64,000 bases of DNA from Ostreococcus lucimarinus (Eukaryota), in assembly GCA_000092065.1 (NCBI GenBank), contig CP000591.1; one strand, given 5' to 3'. This document shows positions 1 to 17,840 of this stretch, one piece after another; positions within the stretch are counted from its first letter, which is position 1, and each line of letters begins with the position of its first letter. Both the position numbers and the translations under genes were made by a program. Below the pieces are notes generated by a model. The model had not been told where the DNA came from and did not search any database. It saw only the letters and a list, made by a program, of their open reading frames with translations.

Positions 1-3000
1 GACGAACGCCGCCGGCGACGGCGCGGCGAGCGGCGATACGCAGTGCGACCACACTATTTGTCCGGCGAACATGCACGTCGTTGGTCACGTGTGCACGCCG
101 TGTCCACCGGGTATGAACCACCCAGGTGGCGACGACGCTTTTTTCGGCGACACGTCGTGCAGCGCCATTCTCTGCCAGTCGAATCAGCGCGTGCTGGGTC
201 ACGCGTGCGTCAGCTGTCCGCCCGGGACGACGAACGATGCGGACGACGACGCCTCGGGTGGCGACACGCAGTGCGATCCGGTCATCTGCGGAGCGCACAT
301 GCGCGTGCAAGATCACAACTGCGTGCAGTGCGTCGCCGGTAAGGAGAACGAAGCCGGCGACGACGCCTCACAAAGTAACACCGAGTGCGACGCCGTCATT
401 TGCGAGCCGAATCATCACGTGGCGGGCAATGTGTGCACGGCGTGTCCCGCCGGTCACGCGCACGCCGGCGGCGACGTGCAGCACGGCCCTGATACGTCGT
501 GCGACGAAGTGCTTTGCCACACGAACGAGCGCGTTCTCGGCCACCAGTGCGTGGCGTGTCCTCCGGGCTCGACGAACGCCGCCGGCGACGGCGCGGCGAG
601 CGGCGATACGCAGTGCGACCACACTATTTGTCCGGCGAACACGCACGTCGTTGGTCACGTGTGCACGCCGTGTCCACCGGGTATGAACCACCCAGGTGGC
701 GACGACGCTTTTTTCGGCGACACGTCGTGCAGCGCCATTCTCTGCCAGTCGAATCAGCGCGTGCTGGGTCACGCGTGCGTCAGCTGTCCGCCCGGGACGA
801 CGAACGATGCGGACGACGACGCCTCGGGTGGCGACACGCAGTGTGATCCGGTCATCTGCGGAGCGCACATGCGCGTGCAAGATCACAACTGCGTGCAGTG
901 CGTCGCCGGTAAGGAGAACGAAGCCGGTGACGACGCCTCACAAAGTAACACCGAGTGCGACGCCGTCATTTGCGAGCCGAATCATCACGTGGCGGGCAAT
1001 GTGTGCACGGCGTGTCCCGCCGGTCACGCGCACGCCGGCGGCGACGTGCAGCACGGCCCTGATACGTCGTGCGACGAAGTGCTTTGCCACACGAACGAGC
1101 GCGTTCTCGGCCACCAGTGCGTGGCGTGTCCTCCGGGCTCGACGAACGCCGCCGGCGACGGCGCGGCGAGCGGCGATACACAGTGCGACCACACTATTTG
1201 TCCGGCGAACACGCACGTCGTTGGTCACGTGTGCACGCCGTGCGCGCCGGGTCGTGACCACCCAGGTGGCGACGATGCGACTCTCGGCGACACGTCGTGC
1301 AGTGCCATCATGTGCGGGCCCAACCAGCACGTCGTGAGCCACGCTTGCACGGTGTGTCCAGCAGGAATGGTTAACGATGCGAACGACGACGCTTCGGGTG
1401 GCGACACGCATTGCGATCCGATACTGTGTCCATCGAATCAACGCGTGCAGGGTCATACGTGTGTGCAATGTGCGCCCGGGAAGACCAACGCACCCAATGA
1501 TGATGCCTCTAGGGGCGACACTGAGTGCGATATTACGTACTGCGCCGCAAATCAGCGCGTACAGGGCCATCAATGTGTCGCGTGTGCGCCCGGCACGACG
1601 AACGATGCCGGCGATGACGCCTCGCAAGTCGACACGCAGTGCGCTCCGATCATTTGTGGCGCACACATGCGAGTTCAAAGTCACGCGTGCGTACAGTGCG
1701 TCCCGGGTCGCGAGAACCTGGCGGGTGACGACGCCTCCGGCCAAGATACACCCTGCGATGAAATCGTGTGCGAAGAGAACCACAAGGTCGTGAGCCACCA
1801 GTGCGTGGCGTGCCCCGCGGGGAAGATACACACGGCTGGCGATGTTGCTTCGGGGCCAGACACGTCTTGCGACGCGGTGACGTGTAGCACGAACGAGCGC
1901 GTTCAAGGCCACCAGTGCGTGGCGTGTCCGGCCGGCACGACAAACGACGGCGGCGACGACGCGTCGGGTGGCGACACGCAGTGCGATCCGGTCATTTGTC
2001 CAGCACAAACGCACGTACAAAACCACGTGTGTGAGGTGTGTCCTCCCGGTCATGCGCACCCAGGTGGTGACGACGCGTCTCAAGGCGACACGCAGTGCGA
2101 CGCAGTGATGTGTGGGGCAAATTATCACGTGCAAGATCATCATTGCGTGCCATGTCCAACGGGTAAAGACAATCAAGCGAACGACAATGCCGCGGGCGCA
2201 GATACAGAGTGCGACATCATCTATTGTGCTGCCAATCAACGCGTACAAAACAACGTCTGTACCGCGTGTCCGCCCGGCACAATTAATGCAGGCGGTGATA
2301 ACGCGTTTGACCATGATACCACTTGCGATACCGTTTATTGCGGCGTGAATCAACACGTCTTTGAAAATGAATGCGTCCCTTGTCCGGCAGGGATGGTAAA
2401 CCCGTCGGGAGACGACGCCACCGGGCCCCGCACGTTTTGCGAGCCAATCATCTGCGGCGCGCACATGCACGTACAGAATCATCAGTGCGTGCAATGTGCT
2501 CCAGGTGATGAAAATTTGGCTGGCGATAGTGCCGCGCAACACGATACCACCTGCGACGAGGTCACTTGTTCTGCGAACGAGCACGTGGTGAGCCACCAAT
2601 GCACGGCGTGTCCCGCCGGTCACGCGCACGCTGGCGGCGACGTGCAGCACGGCCCTGATACGTCGTGCGACGAAGTGCTTTGCCACACGAACGAGCGCGT
2701 TCAAGGCCACCAGTGCGTGGCGTGTCCTCCGGGCTCGACGAACGCCGCCGGCGACGGCGCGGCAAGCGGCGATACGCAGTGCGACCACACTATTTGTCCG
2801 GCGAACACGCACGTCGTCGGTCACGTGTGCACGCCGTGCGCGCCAGGCTACGAACGACTTGCCGGCGACGACGCCACCGGTGGTGATACGCAATGCAGTG
2901 CTGTCTTGTGCGGCGCAAACATGCACGTGCAGAATAATTTGTGCGCGGCGTGCCCCGCTGGCACGACGAACGCCGCCGGCGACGACGCCTCGCGAGGAAA

Positions 3001-6000
3001 CTCGGAATGCGATCACACTATCTGCGAAGCGCACATGCGAGTGCAGAGTCATCAGTGCGTCGCGTGCATGGATGGCAAGGAAAATCTGGCGGGAGACGAT
3101 GCCGCTGGGGGGGACACACAATGCGATGAAGTCATCTGCGCTGCCGATCATCATGTATTAAACCATCAGTGTGTATCGTGCCCTTACGGTCACGCGCACG
3201 CCGGCGGCGACGTGCAGCACGGCCCTGATACGTCGTGCGACGAAGTGCTTTGCCACACGAACGAGCGCGTTCTCGGCCACCAGTGCGTGGCGTGTCCTCC
3301 GGGCTCAACGAACGCCGCCGGCGACGGCGCGGCGAGCGGCGATACGCAGTGCGACCACACTATTTGTCCGGCGAACACGCACGTCGTTGGTCACGTGTGC
3401 ACGCCGTGCGCGCCGGGTCGTGAACACCCAGCCGGCGACGACGCCACCGGTGGTGATACGCAATGCAGCGCCGTGATGTGCGGATCCAACATGCACGTCC
3501 AAAACCACGTGTGCACGGCGTGCCCGGCCGGGACGACGAACGCCGCCGGCGACGACGCTTCCGGAGCGAATACGCAGTGCGACCCAATCTTGTGTGGCGC
3601 GAACCAACACGTCTTGAATCATCAGTGCATGCAGTGCCCGCCCGGCACGCTCAATGACGCCAGCGATAGCGCTGCCGGTGGTAATACGCAGTGCGACGCC
3701 GTGCAGTGCGGCTGCAACCAACGCGTGCAGGGCCATCAATGTGTCACGTGTGCGCCCGGGACGACGAACGACGCCGGCGATGACGCCTCACAAGGCGATA
3801 CGCAGTGCGATCCGACCATCTGCGGCGCGCACATGCGAGTGCAAGATCACGCGTGCGTAGCGTGTGTGGACGGTCGAGAGAACCTGGCGGGTGACGACGC
3901 CTCACAAGGCAACACGCAGTGCGACGAAATCGTGTGCGAAGAGAACCACAAGGTCGTGAGCCACCAGTGCGTGGCGTGCCCCGCGGGGAAGATACACACG
4001 GCTGGCGATATTGCTTCGGGCCCAGACACGTCTTGCGACGCGGTGACGTGTAGCACGAACGAGCGCGTTCAAGGCCACCAGTGCGTGGCGTGTCCGGCTG
4101 GCACGACAAACGACGGCGGCGACGACGCGTCGGGTGGCGACACGCAGTGCGATATTACCCGGTGCACGGCGCACATGCACGTACAAAACCATGTGTGCGT
4201 GCAGTGCCCGGCCGGTAAAGAGAACGTCGCGGGTGATGACGCCTCTGGAGGTAACACGGAATGCGACGTCGTGCGATGCGGTGCCAACCAGCACGTCGTC
4301 GACCACGTGTGCACGGCGTGTCCGGCCGGGACGACGAACGATGAAGGCGACGACGCTTCGGGAGCGAACACGCAGTGCGATCCCGTCATCTGTGAATTGC
4401 ACATGCGAGTGCAGAATCATCAGTGCGTCGCGTGTGCGCCTGGCAAGGAGAATCTGGCGGGCGACGACGCCTCGCAAGGTAACACCGAGTGCGACGCCGT
4501 CATTTGTTCTGCGAACGAGCACGTGGTGAGCCACCAATGCACGGCGTGTCCCGCCGGTCACGCGCACGCCGGCGGCGACGTGCAGCACGGCCCTGATACG
4601 TCGTGCGACGAAGTGCTTTGCCACACGAACGAGCGCGTTCTCGGCCACCAGTGCGTGGCGTGTCCTCCGGGCTCAACGAACGCCGCCGGCGACGGCGCGG
4701 CGAGCGGCGATACGCAGTGCGACCACACTATTTGCCCTGCGAACACGCACGTCGTCGGTCACGCGTGCACGCCGTGTCCGCCAGGTCATGAACACCCGGC
4801 CGGCGACGACGCCACCGGTGGTGATACGCAATGCAGCGCCGTGTCGTGTGGGCCCAACATGCACGTCCAAAACCACGCGTGCACGGCGTGCCCGGCCGGG
4901 ACGACGAACGCCGCCGGCGACGACGCTTCTGGAGCGAATACGCAGTGCGATGCGACAATTTGCGCACACAACAAGCATGTTGTCAACCACGAGTGTGTTC
5001 CGTGTCCAGATGGCCATGAACACCCAGGCGTCGCTGATGCTTCTGGCTCCGATACTTCGTGTGATGTCACGCTGTGTGGCGCGAACCAACACGTCGTGAA
5101 TCATCAGTGCATGCAGTGCCCCCCCGGCACGCTCAATGACGCCAGCGATAGCGCTGCCGGTGGTAATACGCAGTGCGACACCGTGCAGTGCGGCGTCAAC
5201 CAACGCGTGCAGGGCCATCAATGTGTCACGTGTGCGCCCGGGACGACGAACGACGCCGGCGATGACGCCTCACAAGGCGATACGCAGTGCGATCCGACCA
5301 TCTGCGGCGCGCACATGCGAGTGCAAGATCACGCGTGCGTAGCGTGTGTGGACGGTCGAGAGAACCTGGCGGGTGACGACGCCTCACAAGGCAACACGCA
5401 GTGCGACGAAATCGTGTGCGAAGAGAACCACAAGGTCGTGAGCCACCAGTGCGTGGCGTGCCCCGCGGGGAAGATACACACGGCTGGCGATATTGCTTCG
5501 GGCCCAGACACGTCTTGCGACGCGGTGACGTGTAGCACGAACGAGCGCGTTCAAGGCCACCAGTGCGTGGCGTGTCCGGCTGGCACGACAAACGACGGCG
5601 GCGACGACGCGTCGGGTGGCGACACGCAGTGCGATATTACCCGGTGCACGGCGCACATGCACGTACAAAACCATGTGTGCGTGCAGTGCCCGGCCGGTAA
5701 AGAGAACGTCGCGGGTGATGACGCCTCTGGAGGTAACACGGAATGCGACGTCGTGCGATGCGGTGCCAACCAGCACGTCGTCGACCACGTGTGCACGGCG
5801 TGTCCGGCCGGGACGACGAACGATGAAGGCGACGACGCTTCGGGAGCGAACACGCAGTGCGATCCCGTCATCTGTGAATTGCACATGCGAGTGCAGAATC
5901 ATCAGTGCGTCGCGTGTGCGCCTGGCAAGGAGAACGAAGCCGGCGACGACGCCTCGCAAGGTAACACCGAGTGCGACGCCGTCATTTGTTCTGCGAACGA

Positions 6001-8278
6001 GCACGTGGTGAGCCACCAATGCACGGCGTGTCCCGCCGGTCACGCGCACGCCGGCGGCGACGTGCAGCACGGCCCTGATACGTCGTGCGACGAAGTGCTT
6101 TGCCACACGAACGAGCGCGTTCTCGGCCACCAGTGCGTGGCGTGTCCTCCGGGCTCAACGAACGCCGCCGGTGACGGCGCGGCGAGCGGCGATACGCAGT
6201 GCGACCACACTATTTGCCCTGCGAACACGCACGTCGTCGGTCACGCGTGCACGCCGTGTCCGCCAGGTCATGAACACCCGGCCGGCGACGACGCCACCGG
6301 TGGTGATACGCAATGCAGCGCCGTGATGTGCGGATCCAACATGCACGTCCAAAACCACGTGTGCACGGCGTGCCCGGCCGGGACGACGAACGCCGCCGGC
6401 GACGACGCTTCTGGAGCGAATACGCAGTGTGATGTCACGCTGTGCGGCGCGAACCAACACGTCGTGAATCATCAGTGCATGCAGTGCCCGCCCGGCACGC
6501 TCAATGACGCCAGCGATAGCGCTGCCGGTGGTAATACGCAGTGCGACGCCGTGCAGTGCGGCTGCAACCAACGCGTGCAGGGCCATCAATGTGTCACGTG
6601 TGCGCCCGGGACGACGAACGACGCCGGCGATGACGCCTCACAAGGCGATACGCAGTGCGATCCGACCATCTGCGGCGCGCACATGCGAGTGCAAGATCAC
6701 GCGTGCGTAGCGTGTGTGGACGGTCGAGAGAACCTGGCGGGTGACGACGCCTCACAAGGCAACACGCAGTGCGACGAAATCGTGTGCGAAGAGAACCACA
6801 AGGTCGTGAGCCACCAGTGCGTGGCGTGCCCCGCGGGGAAGATACACACGGCTGGCGATATTGCTTCGGGCCCAGACACGTCTTGCGACGCGGTGACGTG
6901 TAGCACGAACGAGCGCGTTCAAGGCCACCAGTGCGTGGCGTGTCCGGCTGGCACGACAAACGACGGCGGCGACGACGCGTCGGGTGGCGACACGCAGTGC
7001 GATATTACCCGGTGCACGGCGCACATGCACGTACAAAACCATGTGTGCGTGCAGTGCCCGGCCGGTAAAGAGAACGTCGCGGGTGATGACGCCTCTGGAG
7101 GTAACACGGAATGCGACGTCGTGCGATGCGGTGCCAACCAGCACGTCGTCGACCACGTGTGCACGGCGTGTCCGGCCGGGACGACGAACGATGAAGGCGA
7201 CGACGCTTCGGGAGCGAACACGCAGTGCGATCCCGTCATCTGTGAATTGCACATGCGAGTGCAGAATCATCAGTGCGTCGCGTGTGCGCCTGGCAAGGAG
7301 AACGAAGCCGGCGACGACGCCTCGCAAGGTAACACCGAGTGCGACGCCGTCATTTGTTCTGCGAACGAGCACGTGGTGAGCCACCAATGCACGGCGTGTC
7401 CCGCCGGTCACGCGCACGCTGGCGGCGACGTGCAGCACGGCCCTGATACGTCGTGCGACGAAGTGCTGTGCCACACGAACGAGCGCGTTCTCGGCCACCA
7501 GTGCGTGGCGTGTCCTCCGGGCTCAACGAACGCCGCCGGCGACGGCGCGGCGAGCGGCGATACGCAGTGCGACCACACCATTTGCCCTGCGAACACGCAC
7601 GTCGTCGGTCACGCGTGCACGCCGTGTCCGCCAGGTCATGAACACCCGGCCGGCGACGACGCCACCGGTGGTGATACGCAATGCAGCGCCGTGTCGTGCG
7701 GGCCCAACATGCACGTCCAAAACCACGTGTGCACGGCGTGCCCGGCCGGGACGTGGAACGATGAAGGCGATGACGCTTCCGGTGCGAACACGCAGTGCGA
7801 TCCGGTCATCTGTGAAGTGCACATGCGAGTGCACGATCACGCGTGCGTTGCGTGTGCGCCTGGCAAGGAGAACGAAGCCGGCGACGACGCCTCGCAAGGT
7901 AACACCGAGTGCGACGCCGTCATTTGCGAGCCGAATCATCACGTGGCGGGCAATGTGTGCACGGCGTGTCCCGCCGGTCACGCGCACGCCGGCGGCGACG
8001 TGCAGCACGGCCCTGATACGTCGTGCGACGAAGTGCTTTGCCACACGAACGAGCGCGTTCAAGACCACCAGTGCGTGGCGTGTCCTCCGGGCTCGACGAA
8101 CGCCGCCGGCGACGGCGTGGCAAGCGGCAATACGCAGTGCGACAGCACTATTTGCGGGGCGAACAGGTACGTATCAAACCATGTGTGCGTGCTTTGCCCT
8201 TACCAACACTATCGCGCCGCCGGCGACGACGCCACCGGTCCCGACACGGCATGTATACGATATTACGGTCTCGGATAG
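1..8278 (+). CDS. Giant secreted/surface-type cysteine-rich tandem-repeat protein. Ephrin-receptor-like / TNFR-like 'CxxCPxG' repeats, about 72 units of 38 aa. 5'-truncated by the window edge.
   Basis: The frame is open from nt 2 and the ORF track shows 2,735 aa. nt 1-60 repeat nt 570-629, so the gene continues upstream. The unit is C-x2-C-P-x-G-x5-GDDA-x-GDT-x-C-x4-C-x9, 114 nt long. Stop at 8278, followed by an AT-rich 3' region. Confidence 0.8.
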   Translation, partial: TNAAGDGAASGDTQCDHTICPANMHVVGHVCTPCPPGMNHPGGDDAFFGDTSCSAILCQSNQRVLGHACVSCPPGTTNDADDDASGGDTQCDPVICGAHMRVQDHNCVQCVAGKENEAGDDASQSNTECDAVICEPNHHVAGNVCTACPAGHAHAGGDVQHGPDTSCDEVLCHTNERVLGHQCVACPPGSTNAAGDGAASGDTQCDHTICPANTHVVGHVCTPCPPGMNHPGGDDAFFGDTSCSAILCQSNQRVLGHACVSCPPGTTNDADDDASGGDTQCDPVICGAHMRVQDHNCVQCVAGKENEAGDDASQSNTECDAVICEPNHHVAGNVCTACPAGHAHAGGDVQHGPDTSCDEVLCHTNERVLGHQCVACPPGSTNAAGDGAASGDTQCDHTICPANTHVVGHVCTPCAPGRDHPGGDDATLGDTSCSAIMCGPNQHVVSHACTVCPAGMVNDANDDASGGDTHCDPILCPSNQRVQGHTCVQCAPGKTNAPNDDASRGDTECDITYCAANQRVQGHQCVACAPGTTNDAGDDASQVDTQCAPIICGAHMRVQSHACVQCVPGRENLAGDDASGQDTPCDEIVCEENHKVVSHQCVACPAGKIHTAGDVASGPDTSCDAVTCSTNERVQGHQCVACPAGTTNDGGDDASGGDTQCDPVICPAQTHVQNHVCEVCPPGHAHPGGDDASQGDTQCDAVMCGANYHVQDHHCVPCPTGKDNQANDNAAGADTECDIIYCAANQRVQNNVCTACPPGTINAGGDNAFDHDTTCDTVYCGVNQHVFENECVPCPAGMVNPSGDDATGPRTFCEPIICGAHMHVQNHQCVQCAPGDENLAGDSAAQHDTTCDEVTCSANEHVVSHQCTACPAGHAHAGGDVQHGPDTSCDEVLCHTNERVQGHQCVACPPGSTNAAGDGAASGDTQCDHTICPANTHVVGHVCTPCAPGYERLAGDDATGGDTQCSAVLCGANMHVQNNLCAACPAGTTNAAGDDASRGNSECDHTICEAHMRVQSHQCVACMDGKENLAGDDAAGGDTQCDEVICAADHHVLNHQCVSCPYGHAHAGGDVQHGPDTSCDEVLCHTNERVLGHQCVACPPGSTNAAGDGAASGDTQCDHTICPANTHVVGHVCTPCAPGREHPAGDDATGGDTQCSAVMCGSNMHVQNHVCTACPAGTTNAAGDDASGANTQCDPILCGANQHVLNHQCMQCPPGTLNDASDSAAGGNTQCDAVQCGCNQRVQGHQCVTCAPGTTNDAGDDASQGDTQCDPTICGAHMRVQDHACVACVDGRENLAGDDASQGNTQCDEIVCEENHKVVSHQCVACPAGKIHTAGDIASGPDTSCDAVTCSTNERVQGHQCVACPAGTTNDGGDDASGGDTQCDITRCTAHMHVQNHVCVQCPAGKENVAGDDASGGNTECDVVRCGANQHVVDHVCTACPAGTTNDEGDDASGANTQCDPVICELHMRVQNHQCVACAPGKENLAGDDASQGNTECDAVICSANEHVVSHQCTACPAGHAHAGGDVQHGPDTSCDEVLCHTNERVLGHQCVACPPGSTNAAGDGAASGDTQCDHTICPANTHVVGHACTPCPPGHEHPAGDDATGGDTQCSAVSCGPNMHVQNHACTACPAGTTNAAGDDASGANTQCDATICAHNKHVVNHECVPCPDGHEHPGVADASGSDTSCDVTLCGANQHVVNHQCMQCPPGTLNDASDSAAGGNTQCDTVQCGVNQRVQGHQCVTCAPGTTNDAGDDASQGDTQCDPTICGAHMRVQDHACVACVDGRENLAGDDASQGNTQCDEIVCEENHKVVSHQCVACPAGKIHTAGDIASGPDTSCDAVTCSTNERVQGHQCVACPAGTTNDGGDDASGGDTQCDITRCTAHMHVQNHVCVQCPAGKENVAGDDASGGNTECDVVRCGANQHVVDHVCTACPAGTTNDEGDDASGANTQCDPVICELHMRVQNHQCVACAPGKENEAGDDASQGNTECDAVICSANEHVVSHQCTACPAGHAHAGGDVQHGPDTSCDEVLCHTNERVLGHQCVACPPGSTNAAGDGAASGDTQCDHTICPANTHVVGHACTPCPPGHEHPAGDDATGGDTQCSAVMCGSNMHVQNHVCTACPAGTTNAAGDDASGANTQCDVTLCGANQHVVNHQCMQCPPGTLNDASDSAAGGNTQCDAVQCGCNQRVQGHQCVTCAPGTTNDAGDDASQGDTQCDPTICGAHMRVQDHACVACVDGRENLAGDDASQGNTQCDEIVCEENHKVVSHQCVACPAGKIHTAGDIASGPDTSCDAVTCSTNERVQGHQCVACPAGTTNDGGDDASGGDTQCDITRCTAHMHVQNHVCVQCPAGKENVAGDDASGGNTECDVVRCGANQHVVDHVCTACPAGTTNDEGDDASGANTQCDPVICELHMRVQNHQCVACAPGKENEAGDDASQGNTECDAVICSANEHVVSHQCTACPAGHAHAGGDVQHGPDTSCDEVLCHTNERVLGHQCVACPPGSTNAAGDGAASGDTQCDHTICPANTHVVGHACTPCPPGHEHPAGDDATGGDTQCSAVSCGPNMHVQNHVCTACPAGTWNDEGDDASGANTQCDPVICEVHMRVHDHACVACAPGKENEAGDDASQGNTECDAVICEPNHHVAGNVCTACPAGHAHAGGDVQHGPDTSCDEVLCHTNERVQDHQCVACPPGSTNAAGDGVASGNTQCDSTICGANRYVSNHVCVLCPYQHYRAAGDDATGPDTACIRYYGLG

Positions 8279-8314
8279 ATGTTTAATTTTTAATAATACG
8301 TCCTAATAATCGAC

Positions 8315-8372
<58 letters not shown>

Positions 8373-8407
8373 GGCGCGCATCAAAACGCGACGCTCGAGT
8401 CGACGCG

Positions 8408-8911
8408 ATGCGCGCGTCCGCGCGCGTCGCGAGCGCGCGCGCGGTCGTGAAGCGCGAGCGCGACGCGCGATCGACGCGCGCGCGCGCGTTCGTGCCGCCC
8501 ATCGTCCCGAATCCGCGCCAGGGCGACGACGACGCGAATGCTGACGCGGCACCGACGCTGCCGAACATCGAACGCGCGCTGGCGCCGCACGGATGGGCGA
8601 TCGGCGCCGAGCGAGGGTACGACGACACGCCGCACGCGTTCAAGATATTCAAAGTGCGCGATGGGCATCACACGCTGGAACAGCTGCAAGAGGCGCTGTA
8701 CGTGAGCGACGAACGAGGGTGTCGGATACGACGCGAGACGCAGTCGTTGTTTTACATGTGCTGCGATGGCGTGCGGTGTCGGTTGAACGAGGGGAAGAAA
8801 GAGATCGTGGTGGAGATGCCGTGTGATTTGGACAGCGTGGGAGCGTACGTGGCGAAGGCCAAGGTGATTGAGGACATCATTAAGAGTTCTCAAAAGAAGA
8901 GGGCTTCGTGA
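8408..8911 (+). CDS. Hypothetical small protein (167 aa) with an Arg/Ala-rich presequence-like N-terminus.
   Basis: ATG at 8408. nt 8580-8911 look coding, with mixed codons and K/E/D-rich sequence. It lies between the convergent 3' ends of the giant gene and BRCA2. I recognise no domain. Confidence 0.35.
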   Translation: MRASARVASARAVVKRERDARSTRARAFVPPIVPNPRQGDDDANADAAPTLPNIERALAPHGWAIGAERGYDDTPHAFKIFKVRDGHHTLEQLQEALYVSDERGCRIRRETQSLFYMCCDGVRCRLNEGKKEIVVEMPCDLDSVGAYVAKAKVIEDIIKSSQKKRAS

Positions 8912-8964
8912 GCGGGCGGCGAGGTTGTAAAACATTCAACATTTTTCTAAAATATGCGTGGTGG

Positions 8965-9025
8965 CTAATCGATCGTTCGTTCTTTCGTTCTTTCGTTCGT
9001 TTTCTCGTTCGTCCGTCCGTTTTTG
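8965..9025 (+). repeat. Pyrimidine-rich (TTCG/TCCG)n simple repeat in the 3' UTR region downstream of the giant repeat gene.
   Basis: The sequence GTTCGTTCTTTCGTTCTTTCGTTCGTTTTCTCGTTCGTCCGTCCG. Similar sense-strand motifs occur in the RPL24 3' region (36440-36480, minus) and inside the HEMA intron. Confidence 0.6.
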
Positions 9026-9036
9026 TTACTAGGTGA

Positions 9037-12000
9037 TCAACGACTCGCGCTTCCTCGGCTAGAACGCCGCGGCGTTCGGCGGGGCGTCGGGGTTGGCACG
9101 ACGACGGGCGCTTTGCTCGCGCTTCGCGTGAGACGAACGGCCTCGTCGGCGAGCGATTGCGCGTTCTCATCGTTCCAATCGTCGTCCATGCTCAATCTGG
9201 GCGGATCGTATTGCGACGCGGGTTCTTGCGAAGCGTGAACCTCGTCCCATGGCATCTCGTCCACCAAAGACTCGGCGTTTTCGGGCACGCCCGTGAGTGC
9301 TCTCGCGCGCGACTTCAACGACGCGATGATCGAGCGCGATCGATCGTCTCGCGAGCCACAAAATCGCTCCAAATCGCGCGACGCAACCGAAATGCGATGG
9401 ATGCCTGGCGTTTGCGCCGCTAACGTCACCGAAACATTTTCGATCGGCACGCGCGCGACGTAGACGCCGTTGTCCGCGTCGTAATGTTGGAACTCCAAAT
9501 TTCGCAAAACGAGCGGCGGTCCACACTCGTGCCGCGCTTCGGTGAATAACTTCGTGGATGGCATCCAATCATCCGCCTTGACAAAGCTGTCATCGTCGTA
9601 TCCAGTAATCTCTACCGCCAAAAGGTGCGGACGCGCCGCGTTCGGAGTCGTCGAATCGAGGACGGATGAATCAAAGCAAAATATCCATTGCGACAGTCGA
9701 CCGCGTTGTGTCGATCGTGGAGGCCCGCAGTGTAAAGTACACGCCACGGCGTCGAATTCTTTGCGCACTAGACCCGATCGCGACAAGTCAGCCAAATCCA
9801 CGGCTGCGCGCACGCTCAAGCAGCGCCATTCATGCTCGCTGTGCTCGAGTTTTTGCGCGGCAATATCTTCCTGCGGGATCGGGGTCCAACGCGTGTAGCG
9901 CGTGGTGGATAAACTTAACTCGCCCTCGATAAACGCGTTCGCGCGTGGTTTGATTGCCGTCACCGCAAACGACTGTCCTGGCTGCGCCGCATCGACGAGT
10001 GCTTCGTCCGCGTCCCAAATCGTAAGAATCGCACTCGTCGATCCGCGGGTGATCGGCCCTCGATATGATTCGTGCTTTGACGACGGCATGAAGCCGACAA
10101 CGTTCAGACGAAGAACCGCGCTCGTACGACGATCGTATAGATTCTTCTCTTGAAGCGCCTCGCGAATCGCTCGCTCTTGATCGACTTCGCTGCCCCAACC
10201 TCCGATGCGATTGTGCATTGCGTCTTGCAACTCGTGCAAGACGCTGTCACGAGCGCGCTGCCATTCAGCATGCGCTCGACGCTCAGCGATTTCGCAACGC
10301 AATACGTTCTTGTCTGCATCCCTACGTTCTTGATGCATCATGGGATACGCGTGTCGGACATGAATCAACATACGCGGCACGACGCCGCCGTCGGGCACCA
10401 CTGAACGCAGGGGTATCGTGAGATTGTACGTGACGCGTCCCAAAGCCGCATCCCACGGCGCGAGCCGCGCGCCGTTCACGTGCAGGCATACGTACGCCAT
10501 CTCTGCATCGTCCGACAGTGGTGACACCGCATCCGTGACACCTCGTAGCTCGGCACCGACAACAAATATTTTGTACCCGACGCGCAAGCGTCCTTCGCGC
10601 ACCGCTCGCGTAAGCTTCGCGTCCAGCCGCGCGCGAACGCTATACCATCCATCCGAAATTTCGATTTCTGACATCGTAGGTACATTACCGATACCGGAAG
10701 CGGTCGTCATCGATCGAATCGCGCTCACGACGTACACTGCCGGCGCGCCTGGGTTTTCATCCTTTTCTAAAATCCTCCTCACGTGCGGTCGCTCCGCGCG
10801 GTTAATTTCGCGTTCATACTTGTACAACATGCGCTGCAGCACGGCGGATTCGCTCAAGACGCCGAAAGCATACTTTTCTGGAAACGCTCGCGCCATGCAT
10901 GCTTGTGTCCACACGATCCACTTGTACGCATTCGCCACCCACTCGTTCGTCAGAGACGCGTCGCTCGCGCCGGCTTTAATCATCAACTCGCGCATCTCTC
11001 GCCAACCAACCAGGCCGCGTTCGACGCTTGGCAAGCGCAATGACTTCGCGGTATCGGCGTTGAGCGTCGCGACGCACGTGTCGACGAACGCTGGGCGAAC
11101 TTGAAACGGGAGCAAATTATTGAAGAATGTGCAGAGCGGCGCTCTCATGCCCATGCGAACGCGCGCGGCGAATAAGTCGTGCACGGCAACACCCACGGAC
11201 GCACCAGTGCCATCGTGGCGCGATCTCTTCGCTTGTCGCGGTGCACTCGCCGCCGTTCGCGCGCCGAGTATTGACATCGGCGGCGTGAAAGCCGTCGTGC
11301 TCTTCATCGGCGGCGTGAACCCGGGCGCCTTCGATGGCGCCTTGCGAACCGCCGGGAGCGACTTCGGCGTCTTGAACGACGGCTGCGGGAACGCCGCACG
11401 CACTGGCGTGTTTTCATTCCCGACTTCCGCGAGAAAAGCGCGCGACTTCTTCAACGCCGCCTCGCTCAGCTCTAAAGTCGCGCCCGCGGCGGTCTGGAAC
11501 ACCAAACCTCCGCCGCCGCTCGCCGCGGGCGGCGTTGCGGCGGCGGCGCTCGGTCGCTCTCGACCAGACGACGACGGGTCGTTTTCATCAACGTCCGCAA
11601 ACATCGCGCGCGCGCGTCGTTTTACGTCTTCAGACACCGCGATGCTCGCACCACCGCCGGTTTGAAAGACCAAGCCCTTGGGCGCCGCCGACGTAAACAC
11701 GCCCCCGCTCTCCGCTCTCGTCGTCGCCGGCGTCTCGATCGCGGCTCGAAACGTGAACGCGTCTTCGTACGCCTCGTCGTCGTCATCAAATCTAGGTTGC
11801 TCGTCGGTTCGAATCGCGCCGTTCGCGCGCGCGATGACGCTCTTCCCACTCGCCGTCGTGAGCGTCACCGAATCCGGCGCCGGCGCGTCTAAATTCGCGT
11901 ACGGCGTCGCCGATCCCGCCATGTGTCGTTGCATGATCACGAACGGGCTCTGCGCCATCGCCGTCGCTCGCGCGCTCGGTCCCGGCGCCGACGCCGGCGC

Positions 12001-12693
12001 CCGTCGCCGACTCACCGGCGTCACCGCGTCCGCGTCGTCGTCCTCGTCTCTCAAATACATGAACCCCTTCCCTCTCGCGCGCCGCGCCGCCGCCGCCGTC
12101 TCCGGCGTCGTCCGCTGCGTCTTCGGCCACGCCGGCGTGTGCGCGAACGGGTTCCCGCACCTCGCGAGCGCGCCCACGCTCACTCCCGGCGACGGCGCCG
12201 GCATCGCCCCGAGCCCACTGATCGACGGACTCTCCCTCGCGCCTCGCGCTTCGTCCGCGTCGTCCGCGTCGTCCGCGTCGTCCGCCGTCCTCACCGCCTC
12301 GTCGTCCCGCACCTCCGTCTCCGGCACCACTCGCCCCGACCGTTCCATCGAGTCTTTCGCGCCCCTTCTCGCGTCGCCGTCGCCCTTTTCGCGCGTCTTT
12401 TCCGCCTCGGCGTCTCGCGCGCGTTCGAACGCGTCGACAGCTCCCGCGCCGTTTGAATCTCTCCTCGAGTTCGTCGTCGCCGTCGTCGCCGCTCGCGCCC
12501 GCGCGACGTACGCCGCGCACGCGGGCTCATCGCCGTCGTCGAGCGCGCCGAGCGCGTCGCACAGCGGCGTCGCGCGCGTCGCGCGCGTCGCCGCATCGTC
12601 GTTCGGTCGCGCGTCGTTCGGTCGCGGCGCGCGCTCGACGTCCCAGCGCGCTTCGCTCGCGCGCGCGCGGCGCCGCGCGACGAGGCTCGGCAT
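9037..12693 (-). CDS. BRCA2: BRCA2 homolog with BRC repeats, the BRCA2 helical domain and OB folds.
   Basis: BRC-like motifs: TTASGKSV, LVFQTGGGASIAVSEDVKRRARAMF and LVFQTAAGATLELSEAALKKSRAFL. Helical-domain match: NEWVANAYKWIVWTQACMARAFPEKY...LQRMLYKYEREIN. OB1 match: ISDGWYSVRARLDAKLTRAVREGRLRVGYKIFVVGAELRG. ATG at 12693. Confidence 0.8.
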   Translation of the reverse strand: MPSLVARRRARASEARWDVERAPRPNDARPNDDAATRATRATPLCDALGALDDGDEPACAAYVARARAATTATTNSRRDSNGAGAVDAFERARDAEAEKTREKGDGDARRGAKDSMERSGRVVPETEVRDDEAVRTADDADDADDADEARGARESPSISGLGAMPAPSPGVSVGALARCGNPFAHTPAWPKTQRTTPETAAAARRARGKGFMYLRDEDDDADAVTPVSRRRAPASAPGPSARATAMAQSPFVIMQRHMAGSATPYANLDAPAPDSVTLTTASGKSVIARANGAIRTDEQPRFDDDDEAYEDAFTFRAAIETPATTRAESGGVFTSAAPKGLVFQTGGGASIAVSEDVKRRARAMFADVDENDPSSSGRERPSAAAATPPAASGGGGLVFQTAAGATLELSEAALKKSRAFLAEVGNENTPVRAAFPQPSFKTPKSLPAVRKAPSKAPGFTPPMKSTTAFTPPMSILGARTAASAPRQAKRSRHDGTGASVGVAVHDLFAARVRMGMRAPLCTFFNNLLPFQVRPAFVDTCVATLNADTAKSLRLPSVERGLVGWREMRELMIKAGASDASLTNEWVANAYKWIVWTQACMARAFPEKYAFGVLSESAVLQRMLYKYEREINRAERPHVRRILEKDENPGAPAVYVVSAIRSMTTASGIGNVPTMSEIEISDGWYSVRARLDAKLTRAVREGRLRVGYKIFVVGAELRGVTDAVSPLSDDAEMAYVCLHVNGARLAPWDAALGRVTYNLTIPLRSVVPDGGVVPRMLIHVRHAYPMMHQERRDADKNVLRCEIAERRAHAEWQRARDSVLHELQDAMHNRIGGWGSEVDQERAIREALQEKNLYDRRTSAVLRLNVVGFMPSSKHESYRGPITRGSTSAILTIWDADEALVDAAQPGQSFAVTAIKPRANAFIEGELSLSTTRYTRWTPIPQEDIAAQKLEHSEHEWRCLSVRAAVDLADLSRSGLVRKEFDAVACTLHCGPPRSTQRGRLSQWIFCFDSSVLDSTTPNAARPHLLAVEITGYDDDSFVKADDWMPSTKLFTEARHECGPPLVLRNLEFQHYDADNGVYVARVPIENVSVTLAAQTPGIHRISVASRDLERFCGSRDDRSRSIIASLKSRARALTGVPENAESLVDEMPWDEVHASQEPASQYDPPRLSMDDDWNDENAQSLADEAVRLTRSASKAPVVVPTPTPRRTPRRSSRGSASR

Positions 12694-12775
12694 CGCGCGT
12701 CGGCGGCCGCGCGCGCGCGCGGCGCGAGGCGCGCGCGACGGTGTGCGGCGTCACAGCGCGGTGCGCGCGGATTCG

Positions 12776-13684
12776 ATGCGCGCGACGCTCGCGCGAAGCC
12801 TCGTCGCGCGCGCGGCGCGCCGCGCGCCCGGACGCGCGCGGTCGCGACGCGCGATGTCGCGCGCGCGATCCGCGAGCGACGCGGGCGCGGAGGCGCTCGC
12901 GGAGGCGCTCGCGAGGCACGAATCGCGCGCGGCGCGATTGTCGTTCGCGGAGGAAGCGCGCGTGATTCTCGACACCAACGGCTGCGGCGCGCTGTCGACG
13001 CTGGGAAACCAACGCGCGGGCGTCTTGGCGGGGTTCCCGTGCGGGAGCGTCGCGGCGTACGCGAGCGATGAGGACGGGCTGCCGATCTTCGCGCTGAGCG
13101 CGCTGTCGCAGCACGCGCGAGACGCGAGGGAAAACGGAAAGGCGACGCTCACGGTGACGCGCGCGGAGTTCGAGGACGTGAGCGACGGGAGAGTGTCGAT
13201 GAGTGGAATCCTGACCGAGGTCGACGCGGGCGAGGCGACGGCGCGGGCGCGAGCGCGGTACCTGGCGCGGCACCCGGGGGCGTTTTGGGTCGATTTCGGC
13301 GACTTCGCGTGGTACAAGATGACCGAGGTCGTGGCGATTCGCATCGTCGGAGGGTTCGCGCGCGCGGGGAGCGTGACGGTGGAAGAGTACGCGAATGCGC
13401 GACCGGATCCGGTGGCGGCGTTTTCGGCGCCGGTGTGCGGACACATGAACGCCGACCACGGGGACTCGCTTCGCGACGTGGTGAAGCACTACGTCGGCGT
13501 GGACGTGGATTCGGTCGAGATGCGCTCGATCGACGCGCTCGGGATGAACTGTCGCGTCGTCAAGGATGGCGAAAAGTACGCGTGTCGCCTACCGTTCGAA
13601 AGCGCGGCGACTGGGCGCAAAGAAGTGAAGGATCAAATCGTATTGATGACGCGAAACGCCGCGGCGGCGGCGAACGCGCAGTAA
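12776..13684 (+). CDS. PNPOx-like FMN-binding split-barrel protein with a DUF2470 C-terminal domain (GluTR-binding-protein / HugZ-like family). Organellar presequence.
   Basis: ATG at 12776 (MRATLARSLVARAARR...). Split-barrel region: ARVILDTNGCGALSTL...GFPCGSVAAYASDEDGLPIFALSALSQHARD. DUF2470-like HMNADHGDSLRDVVKHY motif. The ORF track extends it upstream to 11678, antisense to BRCA2; I consider that extension spurious. Confidence 0.65.
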   Translation: MRATLARSLVARAARRAPGRARSRRAMSRARSASDAGAEALAEALARHESRAARLSFAEEARVILDTNGCGALSTLGNQRAGVLAGFPCGSVAAYASDEDGLPIFALSALSQHARDARENGKATLTVTRAEFEDVSDGRVSMSGILTEVDAGEATARARARYLARHPGAFWVDFGDFAWYKMTEVVAIRIVGGFARAGSVTVEEYANARPDPVAAFSAPVCGHMNADHGDSLRDVVKHYVGVDVDSVEMRSIDALGMNCRVVKDGEKYACRLPFESAATGRKEVKDQIVLMTRNAAAAANAQ

Positions 13685-13881
13685 AATCGACGTCCTCCGG
13701 CGGCGACGTCGAGCCTCGCGATCGACATCGACGCTCCATCACCGAAGCGACGCGCGTCACCACCTAATCTTTATGTTTATCGCGACACCGCGACGATTCG
13801 TTTCCATCCGCGCGCGCCTTCGCGCGTTCGCCCCGCGTCGCGTCGCCTCACACCGCGCCCTCCGCCGCGCCCTCGCGGTGC

Positions 13882-14148
13882 ATGCCCGTGTCGTTCGTGT
13901 ATCAAAAGTCGTCTCGATCCAAACCTCGCGCGGGCGCCGACGTCTGCGAGATCAAGTGCAAGAAGCTCAGCTGCGCGATACAAAAGTGCATCTCCAGACT
14001 GCCCGCCACGCGGTCGCGCACGAGCGCGTCCACGGTGAACTTTGACGCGTGCGCGCCGGCGATCGAGCGCTACGACGCGTGCTGCGCCGCGGCGAGGGCG
14101 GCGGAGGCGCGAGGACGCGATGACGACGACGCGAAGCGTCGCGAGTGA
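13882..14148 (+). CDS. Small twin Cx9C (CHCH-type) protein, a putative mitochondrial intermembrane-space protein.
   Basis: ATG at 13882. Two Cx9C motifs: CKKLSCAIQKC and CAPAIERYDAC. 88 aa with a basic C-terminus. Confidence 0.4.
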   Translation: MPVSFVYQKSSRSKPRAGADVCEIKCKKLSCAIQKCISRLPATRSRTSASTVNFDACAPAIERYDACCAAARAAEARGRDDDDAKRRE

Positions 14149-14887
14149 AGCCCGGAGGCTGGGTTCGAGTCGGACGCGCGCGGCGCGGCGGCGAAGCGTC
14201 GCGAACGCGCGATGCGCGACGCGAGGTTCGAGCGGGCGGCGCGCGGTGCGGTCGCGATGGAAGGCGACGCGCGCGGCGGGCGACGCGAGCGACGAAGACG
14301 ACTCGGGAAGGTTTATCAACGACGACGCGTTTTCGGCGCTCGGCGGGTTGAAGAAGACGAAGGATCCGTTCGCGGCGAACGCGGCGCGGGAAAGACCGGC
14401 GGCGAGCAAGGCGCGCGGTGTCGGTGGATTCTCGAAAGCGGGCGCGGAGACGGCGAGTTTGCCGACGACGCGCGACGCGGATGTGATTTTGAAGCGTTTC
14501 GACGAGACGCAGCGGCGCGAGGGAGCGGAGGCGGCGACGACGGCGTGTGAGCGACCCGCGATGGAACGAGCGACGAGAGCGCTCGCGTCGCGCGCGTCGC
14601 GCGTTATGCTGGGCATATGCGCCGCGAGCGCGGAGGAGGGATTGGCGGCGCTCAAGACGTGGACGGCGGAGTTGGGACTGCCGAAGGGAAAATTACACGG
14701 CATGGATAAGGATGGTATCCCAGTGGATCCGCCGAAAGGGGCGGTGTTCATCAAGTACAACTCACTTTCGGGAGATGCGTACATTTCTGGCTACGGTGGG
14801 ACTTTTCGTGGGGTTTTGTTCACCCCCGAGCTCGACGACGGGGCGTTTCGCCAATACGGATATTTACCGCTCGACGTGTTGCTCTGA
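14120..14887 (+). CDS. Hypothetical conserved protein. N-terminus is transit-peptide-like and the C-terminal domain looks globular.
   Basis: ATG at 14120 (MTTTRSVASEARR...). Conserved-looking C-terminus: GAVFIKYNSLSGDAYISGYGGTFRGVLFTPELDDGAFRQYGYLPLDVLL. The ORF track extends it upstream to 14042. Confidence 0.4.
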   Translation: MTTTRSVASEARRLGSSRTRAARRRSVANARCATRGSSGRRAVRSRWKATRAAGDASDEDDSGRFINDDAFSALGGLKKTKDPFAANAARERPAASKARGVGGFSKAGAETASLPTTRDADVILKRFDETQRREGAEAATTACERPAMERATRALASRASRVMLGICAASAEEGLAALKTWTAELGLPKGKLHGMDKDGIPVDPPKGAVFIKYNSLSGDAYISGYGGTFRGVLFTPELDDGAFRQYGYLPLDVLL

Positions 14888-14950
14888 TCTTGTAGATCTT
14901 GTAGACAAATCTCTAGTACGGCTAAGCTAAATCGCAGTCACGATAGATTG

Positions 14951-16726: not shown

Positions 16727-16786
16727 TCGTCCGCGCGACCGCGAGTGCGGCTCGCCGATGGGGCGCCGCGCGTGACGACGCGCGCG

Positions 16787-17818: not shown

Positions 17819-17840
17819 TTTTGTGTAGTTTACAGATGTC

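What the first reader, a model, noticed from the sequence alone, without database searches (positions are those of the whole stretch)
1..8278. Giant (>2,735 aa, 5'-truncated) protein built entirely from ~72 tandem 38-aa cysteine-rich 'CxxCPxG...GDDAxGDT' repeats
The whole 8.3-kb ORF is a perfectly in-phase array of 114-nt units. Each unit encodes C-x2-C-P-x-G-x5-G-D-D-A-x-x-G-D-T-x-C-x4-C-x9, with four invariant Cys and an acidic GDDA-GDT core. Spacing and the CxxCPxG signature resemble ephrin-receptor-like / TNFR-type cysteine-rich modules. The 38-aa period and the invariant GDD...GDT motif do not match any family I can name with confidence. No TM segment is visible in the window, so a secreted or N-terminally anchored protein is most likely. 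Candidate roles are cell-surface adhesion, scale or wall matrix, or a metal-binding lattice; the acidic GDD/GDT motifs might bind Ca2+. The gene continues beyond the window start.
Basis: seen in the sequence. Interest (0 to 1): 0.8.

Follow-up and report, generated by a model that had tools for sequence, protein, structure and literature searches.

The report
Giant cysteine-rich surface stalk protein
The tiny marine alga Ostreococcus lucimarinus encodes a protein of more than 3,200 residues, probably membrane-anchored, whose outer part is about 75 copies of a 38-residue disulfide-bonded module; the module is an unnamed relative of TNF-receptor-type repeats that other organisms, mostly Myxococcota bacteria, use in 4-22 copies next to other extracellular domains.

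Summary
Window 2-8278 (+) is one open frame of 2,758 codons. It holds a 30-residue partial unit, 71 gapless 38-residue units and a truncated last unit. Four Cys, G7 and V34 are invariant. The window is Ostreococcus lucimarinus CCE9901.

Related contigs supply the missing 5' end: an Arg-rich tail, one transmembrane helix, a roughly 150-200-residue Cys-containing domain, then the repeats. This predicts a type II anchor with the array outside the cell.

The array is real. The matching gene on a long-read contig, from a related lineage or a paralogous locus, carries at least 54 units with the same unit types and higher-order blocks. dN/dS between matched units is 0.12.

The module has no curated family. 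The nearest is Pfam PF23091 (ELAPOR1-like, TNFR-like), and the window scores just below its threshold. No solved structure matches by sequence. AlphaFold2 models four units at pLDDT 97.6, and the weak fold matches are mostly TNFR, EphA2 and mastigoneme cysteine-rich domains.

The repeat is rare: 1,330 of 1.84 billion representative proteins. It occurs mainly in Myxococcota and some protists, beside propellers, lectins or proteases.

Most likely it forms a long, acidic, disulfide-laddered surface rod. Its function is untested. I rate it a new variant of a known kind, of moderate interest.

The parts
2..8278 (+). 3' 8.3 kb of the giant ORF (2,758 codons plus stop). The 5' end lies beyond the window start.
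   Evidence: Single open frame. GC3 is 0.728, like neighbouring genes. dN/dS is 0.12 against the matching gene in L068.
2..91 (+). Partial repeat unit (positions 9-38 of a unit of the 5/10 type). Probably the 4th unit of the gene.
   Evidence: Register analysis. P0127 shows the order N-terminus, unit 0, a type-3 unit, a type-4 unit, a type-5 unit, a type-1 unit.
92..8185 (+). 71 complete 114-nt / 38-aa units with no indels.
92..1231 (+). Two copies of a 5-unit higher-order block (units 1-5 and 6-10), 99-100% identical.
   Evidence: Unit identity matrix.
1232..3625 (+). Units 11-31: the diverged, mostly single-copy part of the array.
   Evidence: For most of these units the best non-self nt identity is 62-88%. 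Units 16, 23, 24, 28, 29, 30 and 31 have closer copies elsewhere in the array.
3626..5107 (+). Higher-order block, copy 1 (units 32-44, 13 units).
   Evidence: Core units are 100% identical to copies 2 and 3. The longest exact repeats are 738-855 nt.
5108..6475 (+). Higher-order block, copy 2 (units 45-56, 12 units).
6476..7729 (+). Higher-order block, copy 3 (units 57-67).
7730..8185 (+). Units 68-71: the distal units. These are retained in the collapsed short-read versions of the gene.
   Evidence: L001 aligns to window 7711-18286 at 99.4%. P0043 sequence.
8186..8278 (+). Truncated last unit (CVLCPYQHYRAAGDDATGPDTACIRYYGLG) and stop codon. No C-terminal hydrophobic segment.
   Evidence: The maximum 19-residue hydropathy in the window protein is 0.75.

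Best explanation
The window holds the 3' 8.3 kb of a native Ostreococcus lucimarinus gene for a giant type II membrane protein of at least about 3,250 aa.

Predicted layout, from the N-terminus:
- an Arg-rich cytoplasmic tail;
- one transmembrane helix;
- a short linker;
- a Cys-containing beta-rich domain shared with smaller proteins of presumably related (Mamiellales) picoalgae; its conserved core is about 150 residues;
- about 75 tandem 38-residue modules that end without any distal domain.

Each module has four Cys, which would form two disulfides. It folds as a beta-hairpin plus a conserved GDDASGxDT loop and is a distant, unnamed relative of TNFR / ephrin-receptor / ELAPOR1-type cysteine-rich modules. 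Stacked head to tail, the modules should form a stiff, disulfide-laddered, strongly acidic (pI 4.5), His-rich rod. By analogy with TNFR domains and the MST1 disulfide ladder, the rod would be roughly 0.15-0.2 micrometres long and project from the surface of this naked cell.

In other organisms the same module occurs in 4-22 copies between a membrane or lipid anchor and a distal functional domain, so its generic job looks like that of an extracellular stalk or spacer. In Ostreococcus the stalk has been expanded by unequal crossing-over of 5- and 12/13-unit blocks. It probably acts as a surface fibril or coat, for adhesion or as a physical barrier.

Shown: the ORF, repeat anatomy, selective constraint, the existence of a long array on an independent assembly, family distribution, the confident model and the weak TNFR-like fold class.

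Inferred: topology, disulfides, rod length, surface location and function.
For: Organism and nativeness:
- The APC2 ORF equals XP_001420260.1 of O. lucimarinus CCE9901.
- The neighbours are eukaryotic.
- GC3 matches the neighbours.

5' end and topology:
- P0043 and P0127 come from contigs 99.4% identical to the window.
- They have a single hydrophobic segment after RERARERGGARRGRG.

The array is real and constrained:
- The long-read contig L068 carries at least 54 units over 7.15 kb, with the same unit order and higher-order blocks.
- dN is 0.11 and dS 0.89 between matched units.

Module structure:
- AlphaFold2 gives pLDDT 97.6 and pTM 0.75, with one beta-hairpin per unit.
- PF23091 is hit by 31 of 61 fragments.

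Stalk role:
- In P0001 the order is signal peptide, FG-GAP, repeats, TM. In P0082 it is subtilisin, repeats, TM. In P0005 and P0109 it is lipobox, repeats, FG-GAP. In P0094 it is lipobox, repeats, SUEL lectin. In P0073 it is TM, N-domain, 6 units, C-domain.

Analogies from the literature:
- MST1 has a disulfide ladder with about 11 A spacing in an extracellular algal filament (PMC10602792).
- Unidentified ~5-nm extracellular filaments and surface complexes were seen on O. tauri by cryo-ET (PMC1939878).
Against: - There is no expression, localisation or biochemical evidence for this gene.
- I could not read the model coordinates, so disulfide pairing and rise per unit are not measured.
- The 5' end comes from collapsed short-read contigs, not from the window's own record, so more units may lie upstream.
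- L068 has different upstream neighbours. It may be a paralogous locus rather than the strict orthologue.
- The protein has no distal domain, so 'stalk' does not by itself say what it binds or does.
Confidence: 0.6

Rival explanations
1. It is a metal- or calcium-binding polyanion. In this reading the conserved acidic GDDASGxDT loops bind Ca2+, or the Ostreococcus-specific His enrichment binds Zn, Cu, Fe or Ni. The array would then serve as a cation store, buffer or mineral-nucleating lattice at the cell surface.
For: D+E is 362 against K+R 71, and pI is 4.5. His is 6.6-6.9% against 2.3% in homologues. D14, D/N20 and T21 are almost invariant across the whole family.
Against: The loop matches no known Ca-binding signature that I could recognise (not DxDxDG, RTX or TSP3; by eye). 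No Pfam Ca-binding family is hit. AlphaFold2 models the loop at pLDDT above 95 without ions, which is compatible with a purely structural Asx/Thr-capped turn. The acidic loop is equally conserved in bacterial proteins where the array is only a short linker.
Confidence: 0.15
2. It is a ligand-binding receptor or decoy in the manner of TNFR or Eph receptors. For example, it could be an attachment site or decoy for prasinoviruses or grazers, with copy number tuning susceptibility.
For: TNFR-like fold class. Surface topology. Higher-order blocks evolve rapidly and are homogenised independently in two lineages.
Against: The cytoplasmic tail is short and has no signalling domain. 75 near-uniform modules, 35 types at 90% identity, look structural rather than like a binding site. 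Purifying selection (dN/dS 0.12) argues against an arms-race surface. No TNF-like ligand is known in the lineage (not tested).
Confidence: 0.12
3. It is an assembly artefact or a decaying pseudogene. In this reading the true gene has about 5 units, as in all short-read metagenome versions.
For: All 15 members of the P0043 cluster are at most 603 aa, with about 5 units. Exact internal repeats of 738-855 nt invite mis-assembly.
Against: The frame is intact over 2,758 codons. The three block copies differ at their edges: units 39 and 52 are 96% identical, and units 43-44 occur only in copy 1. An independent long-read contig carries at least 54 units with the same architecture. Selection is purifying. 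The collapse junction in L001/P0043 lies exactly in sequence shared by units 3-4 and 69-70, as expected for de Bruijn collapse.
Confidence: 0.04

Closest known systems
Pfam PF23091 TNFR_ELAPOR1_6th (ELAPOR1-like, TNF receptor-like module)
   Same: It is a module of about 40 residues with C-x4-C-x9/10-C-x2-C-x2-G spacing. Model positions 10-35 align to unit positions 19-38 plus 1-7 of the next unit. 31 of 61 family fragments hit it, best E 2.8e-9. ELAPOR1 structures appear among the fold matches.
   Different: The window segments score 32 and 15 bits against a cut-off of 33.2. The strict 38-residue period, the conserved GTTNxAGDDASGxDT loop and arrays of tens of copies are not features of ELAPOR1.
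TNF-receptor superfamily cysteine-rich domains (Pfam TNFR_c6) and the ephrin-receptor cysteine-rich domain / Ephrin_rec_like (PF07699)
Chlamydomonas MST1 mastigoneme subunit
   Same: It is a green-algal extracellular filament protein whose tandem cysteine-rich domains, which its authors liken to the ephrin-receptor CRD, form a disulfide ladder that gives mechanical robustness (PMC10602792). It matches in Foldseek at E 0.05-0.07.
   Different: MST1 also has Ig-like domains and a polyproline-II helix, polymerises and sits on cilia. Ostreococcus has no flagella (my own knowledge). There is no sequence similarity, and polymerisation of the Ostreococcus protein is unknown.
Homologous 38-aa repeat proteins of Myxococcota/Bradymonadia and protists (unnamed family)
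   Same: They share the same consensus, CVxCPxGTTNxAGDDASGxDTxCDxxxCxxNExVxxNx, and the same 38-aa / 114-nt period. Four-unit blocks are 36-56% identical to the window's.
   Different: They carry 4-22 units, not about 75. They are usually joined to FG-GAP or RCC1 propellers, lectins, proteases or VWA domains. They are His-poor, with N instead of H at position 37.
Giardia VSP/HCMP-type CxxC-rich surface proteins (from memory; not tested)
   Same: They are protist surface proteins rich in CxxC motifs.
   Different: They are type I proteins with a conserved C-terminal tail and irregular repeats. No similarity was detected in any search here.

Membership tests
Pfam PF23091 TNFR_ELAPOR1_6th | Score at or above the gathering threshold (33.2 bits) against the 41-position model | tested here: inconclusive
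   Window residues 1-599 score 32.0 bits over 6 stretches, and the C-terminal 425 aa score 15.3 bits. 31 of 61 four-unit family fragments match at E <= 1, best 2.8e-9.
TNFR superfamily CRD (Pfam TNFR_c6 PF00020) | Match to the TNFR_c6 profile; about 40-aa domain with six Cys | tested here: not met
   No hit at E <= 1. The unit has four Cys per 38 aa.
TNFR superfamily CRD | TNFR-like three-dimensional fold | tested here: inconclusive
Ephrin_rec_like / GCC2_GCC3 (PF07699) | Match to the profile above threshold | tested here: not met
   The two window segments scanned directly and the first window fragment of A1 do not hit it. Across all 61 fragments only 5 match, best E 0.019.
Myxococcus cysteine-rich repeat (TIGR02232 / PF13948 DUF4215) | Match to the NCBIfam or Pfam model | tested here: not met
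   NCBIfam gives 0 families at E <= 1. PF13948 is not hit by the window. It co-occurs in one homologue, P0077, as a separate domain.
Unnamed 38-aa 'CxxCPxGTTN-GDDASGxDT' repeat family (defined here) | 38-residue period; Cys at 1, 4, 23, 28; G7, G13, D14, T21, V34 | tested here: met
   71 of 71 units conform. The same invariants hold in 61 fragments from about 50 proteins. 443 inter-unit spacings of exactly 38 were found in 120 homologues.
Type II (N-in) single-pass membrane protein | One N-terminal hydrophobic helix with positive charges on its N-side and no cleavable signal peptide | tested here: met
   P0043 residues 86-104, GTIAVGAMCVAIGVAIGSV (hydropathy 2.04), follow RERARERGGARRGRG. This is prediction only and comes from contigs outside the window.
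Calcium-binding repeat (EF-hand-like DxDxDG, TSP3, RTX) | Recognised Ca-binding signature or profile match; measured Ca2+ binding | not testable with these tools
   No Pfam hit to such families. Binding needs experiment.

The most novel reading that the evidence does not exclude
Ostreococcus is described as a naked cell. In this reading it carries a coat of ~0.2-micrometre hair-like fibrils made of this one giant protein, and these are the unidentified ~5-nm extracellular filaments seen by cryo-ET. The array length, set by unequal crossing-over of 5- and 12/13-unit blocks, would vary between strains and tune adhesion, sinking, or access of prasinoviruses and grazers to the membrane. The module would be a previously unrecognised, structurally distinct cysteine-rich stalk family shared between predatory Myxococcota and several protist lineages, possibly through ancient horizontal transfer.
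Probability: 0.15. Interest if true: 0.7.

Novelty: new variant of a known kind. Interest (0 to 1): 0.45.

Why it matters

If the protein forms surface fibrils, it would change the picture of a 'naked' picoalga. It would also give a molecular handle on cell-surface interactions such as virus adsorption, grazing and aggregation, which shape the ecology of an abundant marine primary producer.

The module is a very confidently modelled, disulfide-rich 38-residue unit. It has no curated family and no solved relative by sequence, so it is a clear candidate for a new domain family. It may also suit use as a rigid, modular extracellular spacer.

The case also shows how short-read assemblies hide such genes. 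Every short-read metagenome version found here has only about 5 units.

Tried and rejected
- NCBIfam scan found nothing.
- A PDB sequence search with the family profile gave 0 hits even at E = 10.
I replaced it with a degenerate DNA pattern for AGDDASGxDTxC.
- A homologue search with the N-terminal domain alone returned nothing, not even the source protein. This looks like a tool sensitivity limit.
- AlphaFold2 of the N-domain from 6 sequences gave pLDDT 51, too poor for a fold search.
- The afdb50 fold library was not available.
- The BFVD viral fold search gave only weak TNFR-like matches.
- Literature searches for the repeat in Ostreococcus/Mamiellales or as an ephrin-like or TNFR-like family gave no description of this gene.
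- A look-up of APC2 to place the window in the chromosome returned only short Logan contigs.
- I considered recent horizontal transfer and rejected it: GC3 and composition match the neighbouring genes.
- I considered antisense ORFs (for example 938-3154, minus strand, 738 aa) as genes and rejected them. They are by-products of a stop-poor GC-rich repeat. Only the + frame is open throughout, carries the motif and shows dN/dS well below 1.
Full report
**1.

Window 2-8278 on the + strand is one uninterrupted reading frame of 2,758 codons followed by a stop. Read with a 38-residue period from residue 31, it gives 71 complete units (nt 92-8185). A 30-residue partial unit sits at the window edge and a 30-residue truncated last unit (…CIRYYGLG*) closes the array. 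There is no insertion or deletion anywhere.

- C1, C4, G7, C23, C28 and V34 occur in 71/71 units.
- D14 and T21 occur in 70/71, and H37 in 65/71.
- The consensus is CVACPPGTTNAAGDDASGGDTQCDAVICGANMHVQGHQ.
- The motif is found in no other frame or place in the 64-kb window.

**2. The array has two layers**

Unrelated units are only about 60% identical in DNA (median). This is why Tandem Repeats Finder reports the 114-nt period only for 1-859. On top of this old divergence lie recent higher-order duplications.

- Units 1-5 equal units 6-10 at 99-100%.
- A 12/13-unit block is present three times (units 32-44, 45-56 and 57-67). Its core units are 100% identical.
- Exact internal repeats reach 855 nt.
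- All direct-repeat spacings are multiples of 114.
- At 90% aa identity there are 35 unit types.

**3. Organism and context**

The neighbouring ORFs are eukaryotic: BRCA2, APC2, MCM2, an Omp85/Toc75-like protein and kinases. The APC2 ORF is identical to XP_001420260.1 of Ostreococcus lucimarinus CCE9901. The giant ORF has the same GC and GC3 (0.728) as its neighbours. It is therefore a native gene and not a recent import.

**4. The missing 5' end**

The homologue search returned P0043 (552 aa), encoded on a Tara Oceans short-read contig (L001). L001 is 99.4% identical to window 7711-18286 and syntenic downstream, with BRCA2, an SDR and Omp85. P0043 has the same C-terminus as the window protein but only about 5 units.

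Its junction lies in sequence shared by window units 3-4 and 69-70. It is therefore a de Bruijn collapse of the array, which is expected given exact repeats longer than any k-mer.

These contigs still give the N-terminus, in this order:
- an Arg-rich tail;
- one hydrophobic helix (GTIAVGAMCVAIGVAIGSV);
- a linker;
- a Cys-containing domain with 8 conserved Cys, whose conserved core is about 150 residues;
- the first repeat.

By the positive-inside rule this is a type II anchor with the repeats outside. A second contig (P0127) shows the order unit 0, a type-3 unit, a type-4 unit, a type-5 unit, a type-1 unit. The window therefore probably starts in the 4th unit. The full protein would have at least about 3,250 aa and about 75 units, and more copies upstream cannot be excluded.

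The N-domain has no Pfam match. AlphaFold2 could not model it from 6 sequences (pLDDT 51).

**5. The array is real and under selection**

A member of the P0028 cluster has an N-domain 73% identical to that of P0043. It maps to the end of a 1.165-Mb pilon-polished long-read metagenome contig (L068).

- There, the N-terminal part is followed by at least 54 recognisable units over 7.15 kb.
- The frame is broken only by a few frame shifts that look like long-read indels, and the array runs off the contig end.
- The same unit types occur in the same order as in the window, with the same kind of 5- and 12/13-unit blocks amplified.
- Matched units give dN 0.11 and dS 0.89, a ratio of 0.12.

This rules out an assembly artefact or pseudogene as the main explanation. 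One caveat: L068 has different upstream genes, so it may be a related lineage or a paralogous locus.

**6. What the module is**

- Pfam gives only PF23091 (TNFR_ELAPOR1_6th), just under threshold (32 against 33.2 bits). NCBIfam gives nothing.
- Of 61 four-unit fragments from the family, 31 touch PF23091 (best 2.8e-9), 5 touch Ephrin_rec_like (best 0.019) and none touch TNFR_c6.
- A profile of the family finds no PDB chain even at E = 10.
- AlphaFold2 on the 61-row alignment gives a very confident model: pLDDT 97.6, pTM 0.75, all residues above 90, with one beta-hairpin per unit at positions 32-35 and 38-41.
- Viral structures give the same picture.

The module therefore belongs to the broad TNFR / ephrin-receptor-like class of disulfide-stapled modules. 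It is a distinct subfamily that no curated library used here names.

**7. Distribution**

- Against 1.84 billion representative proteins, the profile finds 1,330 proteins at E <= 1e-3 and 830 at E <= 1e-10.
- In 120 homologues, 443 inter-unit spacings are exactly 38 residues.
- The family consensus is CVxCPxGTTNxAGDDASGxDTxCDxxxCxxNExVxxNx.
- A DNA pattern for AGDDASGxDTxC finds 63 loci among 185,579 prokaryotic species. Most are titled as Myxococcota or Bradymonadia MAGs, a few carry other or unresolved labels, and the matches are spaced 114 nt apart.
- Eukaryotic members include Chromera velia (a subtilisin, P0082), the dinoflagellate Biecheleria cincta (P0015) and several marine-metagenome proteins, presumably from related Mamiellales picoalgae, that share the TM plus N-domain architecture (P0073, P0045, P0011, P0021).
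- Copy numbers are 4-14 in the best 300 proteins and at least 22 in one bacterial locus truncated by the fetch limit. The Ostreococcus arrays are the longest seen here.

**8. How it most likely works**

In homologues the array sits between an anchor and a distal domain:
- P0005 and P0109: lipobox, repeats, FG-GAP propeller.
- P0094: lipobox, repeats, SUEL lectin.
- P0001: signal peptide, FG-GAP, repeats, TM.
- P0082: subtilisin, repeats, TM.
- P0073: TM, N-domain, 6 units, a 330-aa C-domain.

This pattern argues that the module is a generic rigid extracellular stalk. The Ostreococcus protein has no distal domain, so the rod itself must be the functional part.

The window portion has these properties:
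- 280 kDa and pI 4.5;
- 10.6% Cys;
- 6.9% His, three times the level in homologues;
- D+E 362 against K+R 71.

Two analogies give a rough length. TNFR domains span about 25-30 A each (my own knowledge). MST1's disulfide ladder has about 11 A spacing (PMC10602792). On either basis, about 75 units would span roughly 0.15-0.2 micrometres. This is an inference; I could not read the model coordinates.

Cryo-tomography of O. tauri reported unidentified ~5-nm extracellular filaments and large surface complexes (PMC1939878). That is a lead, not evidence. I therefore favour a surface fibril or coat with an adhesive or barrier role (confidence about 0.6 for the structural picture, lower for the specific role).

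**9. Rival explanations**

- Metal or Ca2+-binding polyanion (0.15). The composition fits, but no known signature matches and the loop is modelled confidently without ions.
- Receptor or decoy for viruses or grazers (0.12). The surface location and fast-evolving blocks fit. Against it are purifying selection, uniform modules and the lack of a signalling tail.
- Artefact or pseudogene (0.04). This is contradicted by sections 1, 2 and 5.

**10. Novelty and verdict**

No paper found here describes this gene or the repeat. No protein in the 5.8-billion-cluster database resembles the query closely over its length: the best hits are 45-65% identical. The full-length product therefore appears to be unrepresented there.

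It is not a new kind of thing. Giant repetitive Cys-rich surface proteins and TNFR-like modules are both well known. It is a new, well-defined variant: an unnamed 38-residue subfamily with an extreme, conserved, block-wise expansion in a minimal eukaryote.

Interest is moderate at 0.45. It would rise if the link to surface fibrils or to virus interaction were shown.

Noticed in passing
window 2-8275 (+): The 2,758-residue protein has no N-x-S/T glycosylation sequon despite 164 Asn. All 24 units with N at position 20 have Q or E at position 22, while 18 of the 46 units with D at position 20 have S or T there. This suggests avoidance of N-glycosylation sites.
   Followed up: partly
protein P0303 (= MAK95759.1), cluster of P0028: A protein annotated as 'hypothetical protein [Euryarchaeota archaeon]' in a public MAG is at least 90% identical to the Ostreococcus-type N-domain plus repeat gene. 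A picoalgal contig seems to have been mis-binned into an archaeal MAG.
   Followed up: no
L065 (IMG/VR UViG_3300020185_000019) 316-12026; L066/L067: Contigs filed as viral carry the same 38-aa repeat. L065 has an open frame of at least 3,903 aa at 47% GC with at least 9 units. This is either a giant-virus gene or mis-filed eukaryotic DNA.
   Followed up: partly
window 8322-8488 and 8969-9021: CG-rich simple repeats lie just 3' of the giant ORF: (GC)n and a 21-22-nt CGCGC…CACAGCG unit in 2.6 copies. A (TCGT)13 tract lies just beyond the 3' end of the BRCA2 ORF.
   Followed up: no
window 47529-50885 (-) and 38618-40825 (-): Two multidomain fusion ORFs: PP2C phosphatase + cNMP-binding + protein kinase (1,118 aa), and FGGY sugar kinase + ribulose-phosphate 3-epimerase (735 aa).
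   Followed up: no
proteins P0073/P0045 (817-818 aa), P0011, P0021: Proteins from marine metagenomes, presumably related Mamiellales picoalgae, share the TM plus N-domain followed by 6-17 units. P0073, P0045 and P0011 also have an uncharacterised C-terminal domain of about 330 aa with no Pfam match (P0021 has none). The clusters are abundant in marine metagenomes, with 68-137 members each.
   Followed up: partly
L068 11057-18212: The 1.165-Mb long-read contig ends inside the repeat array. This gene is therefore an assembly breakpoint even for long reads.
   Followed up: yes
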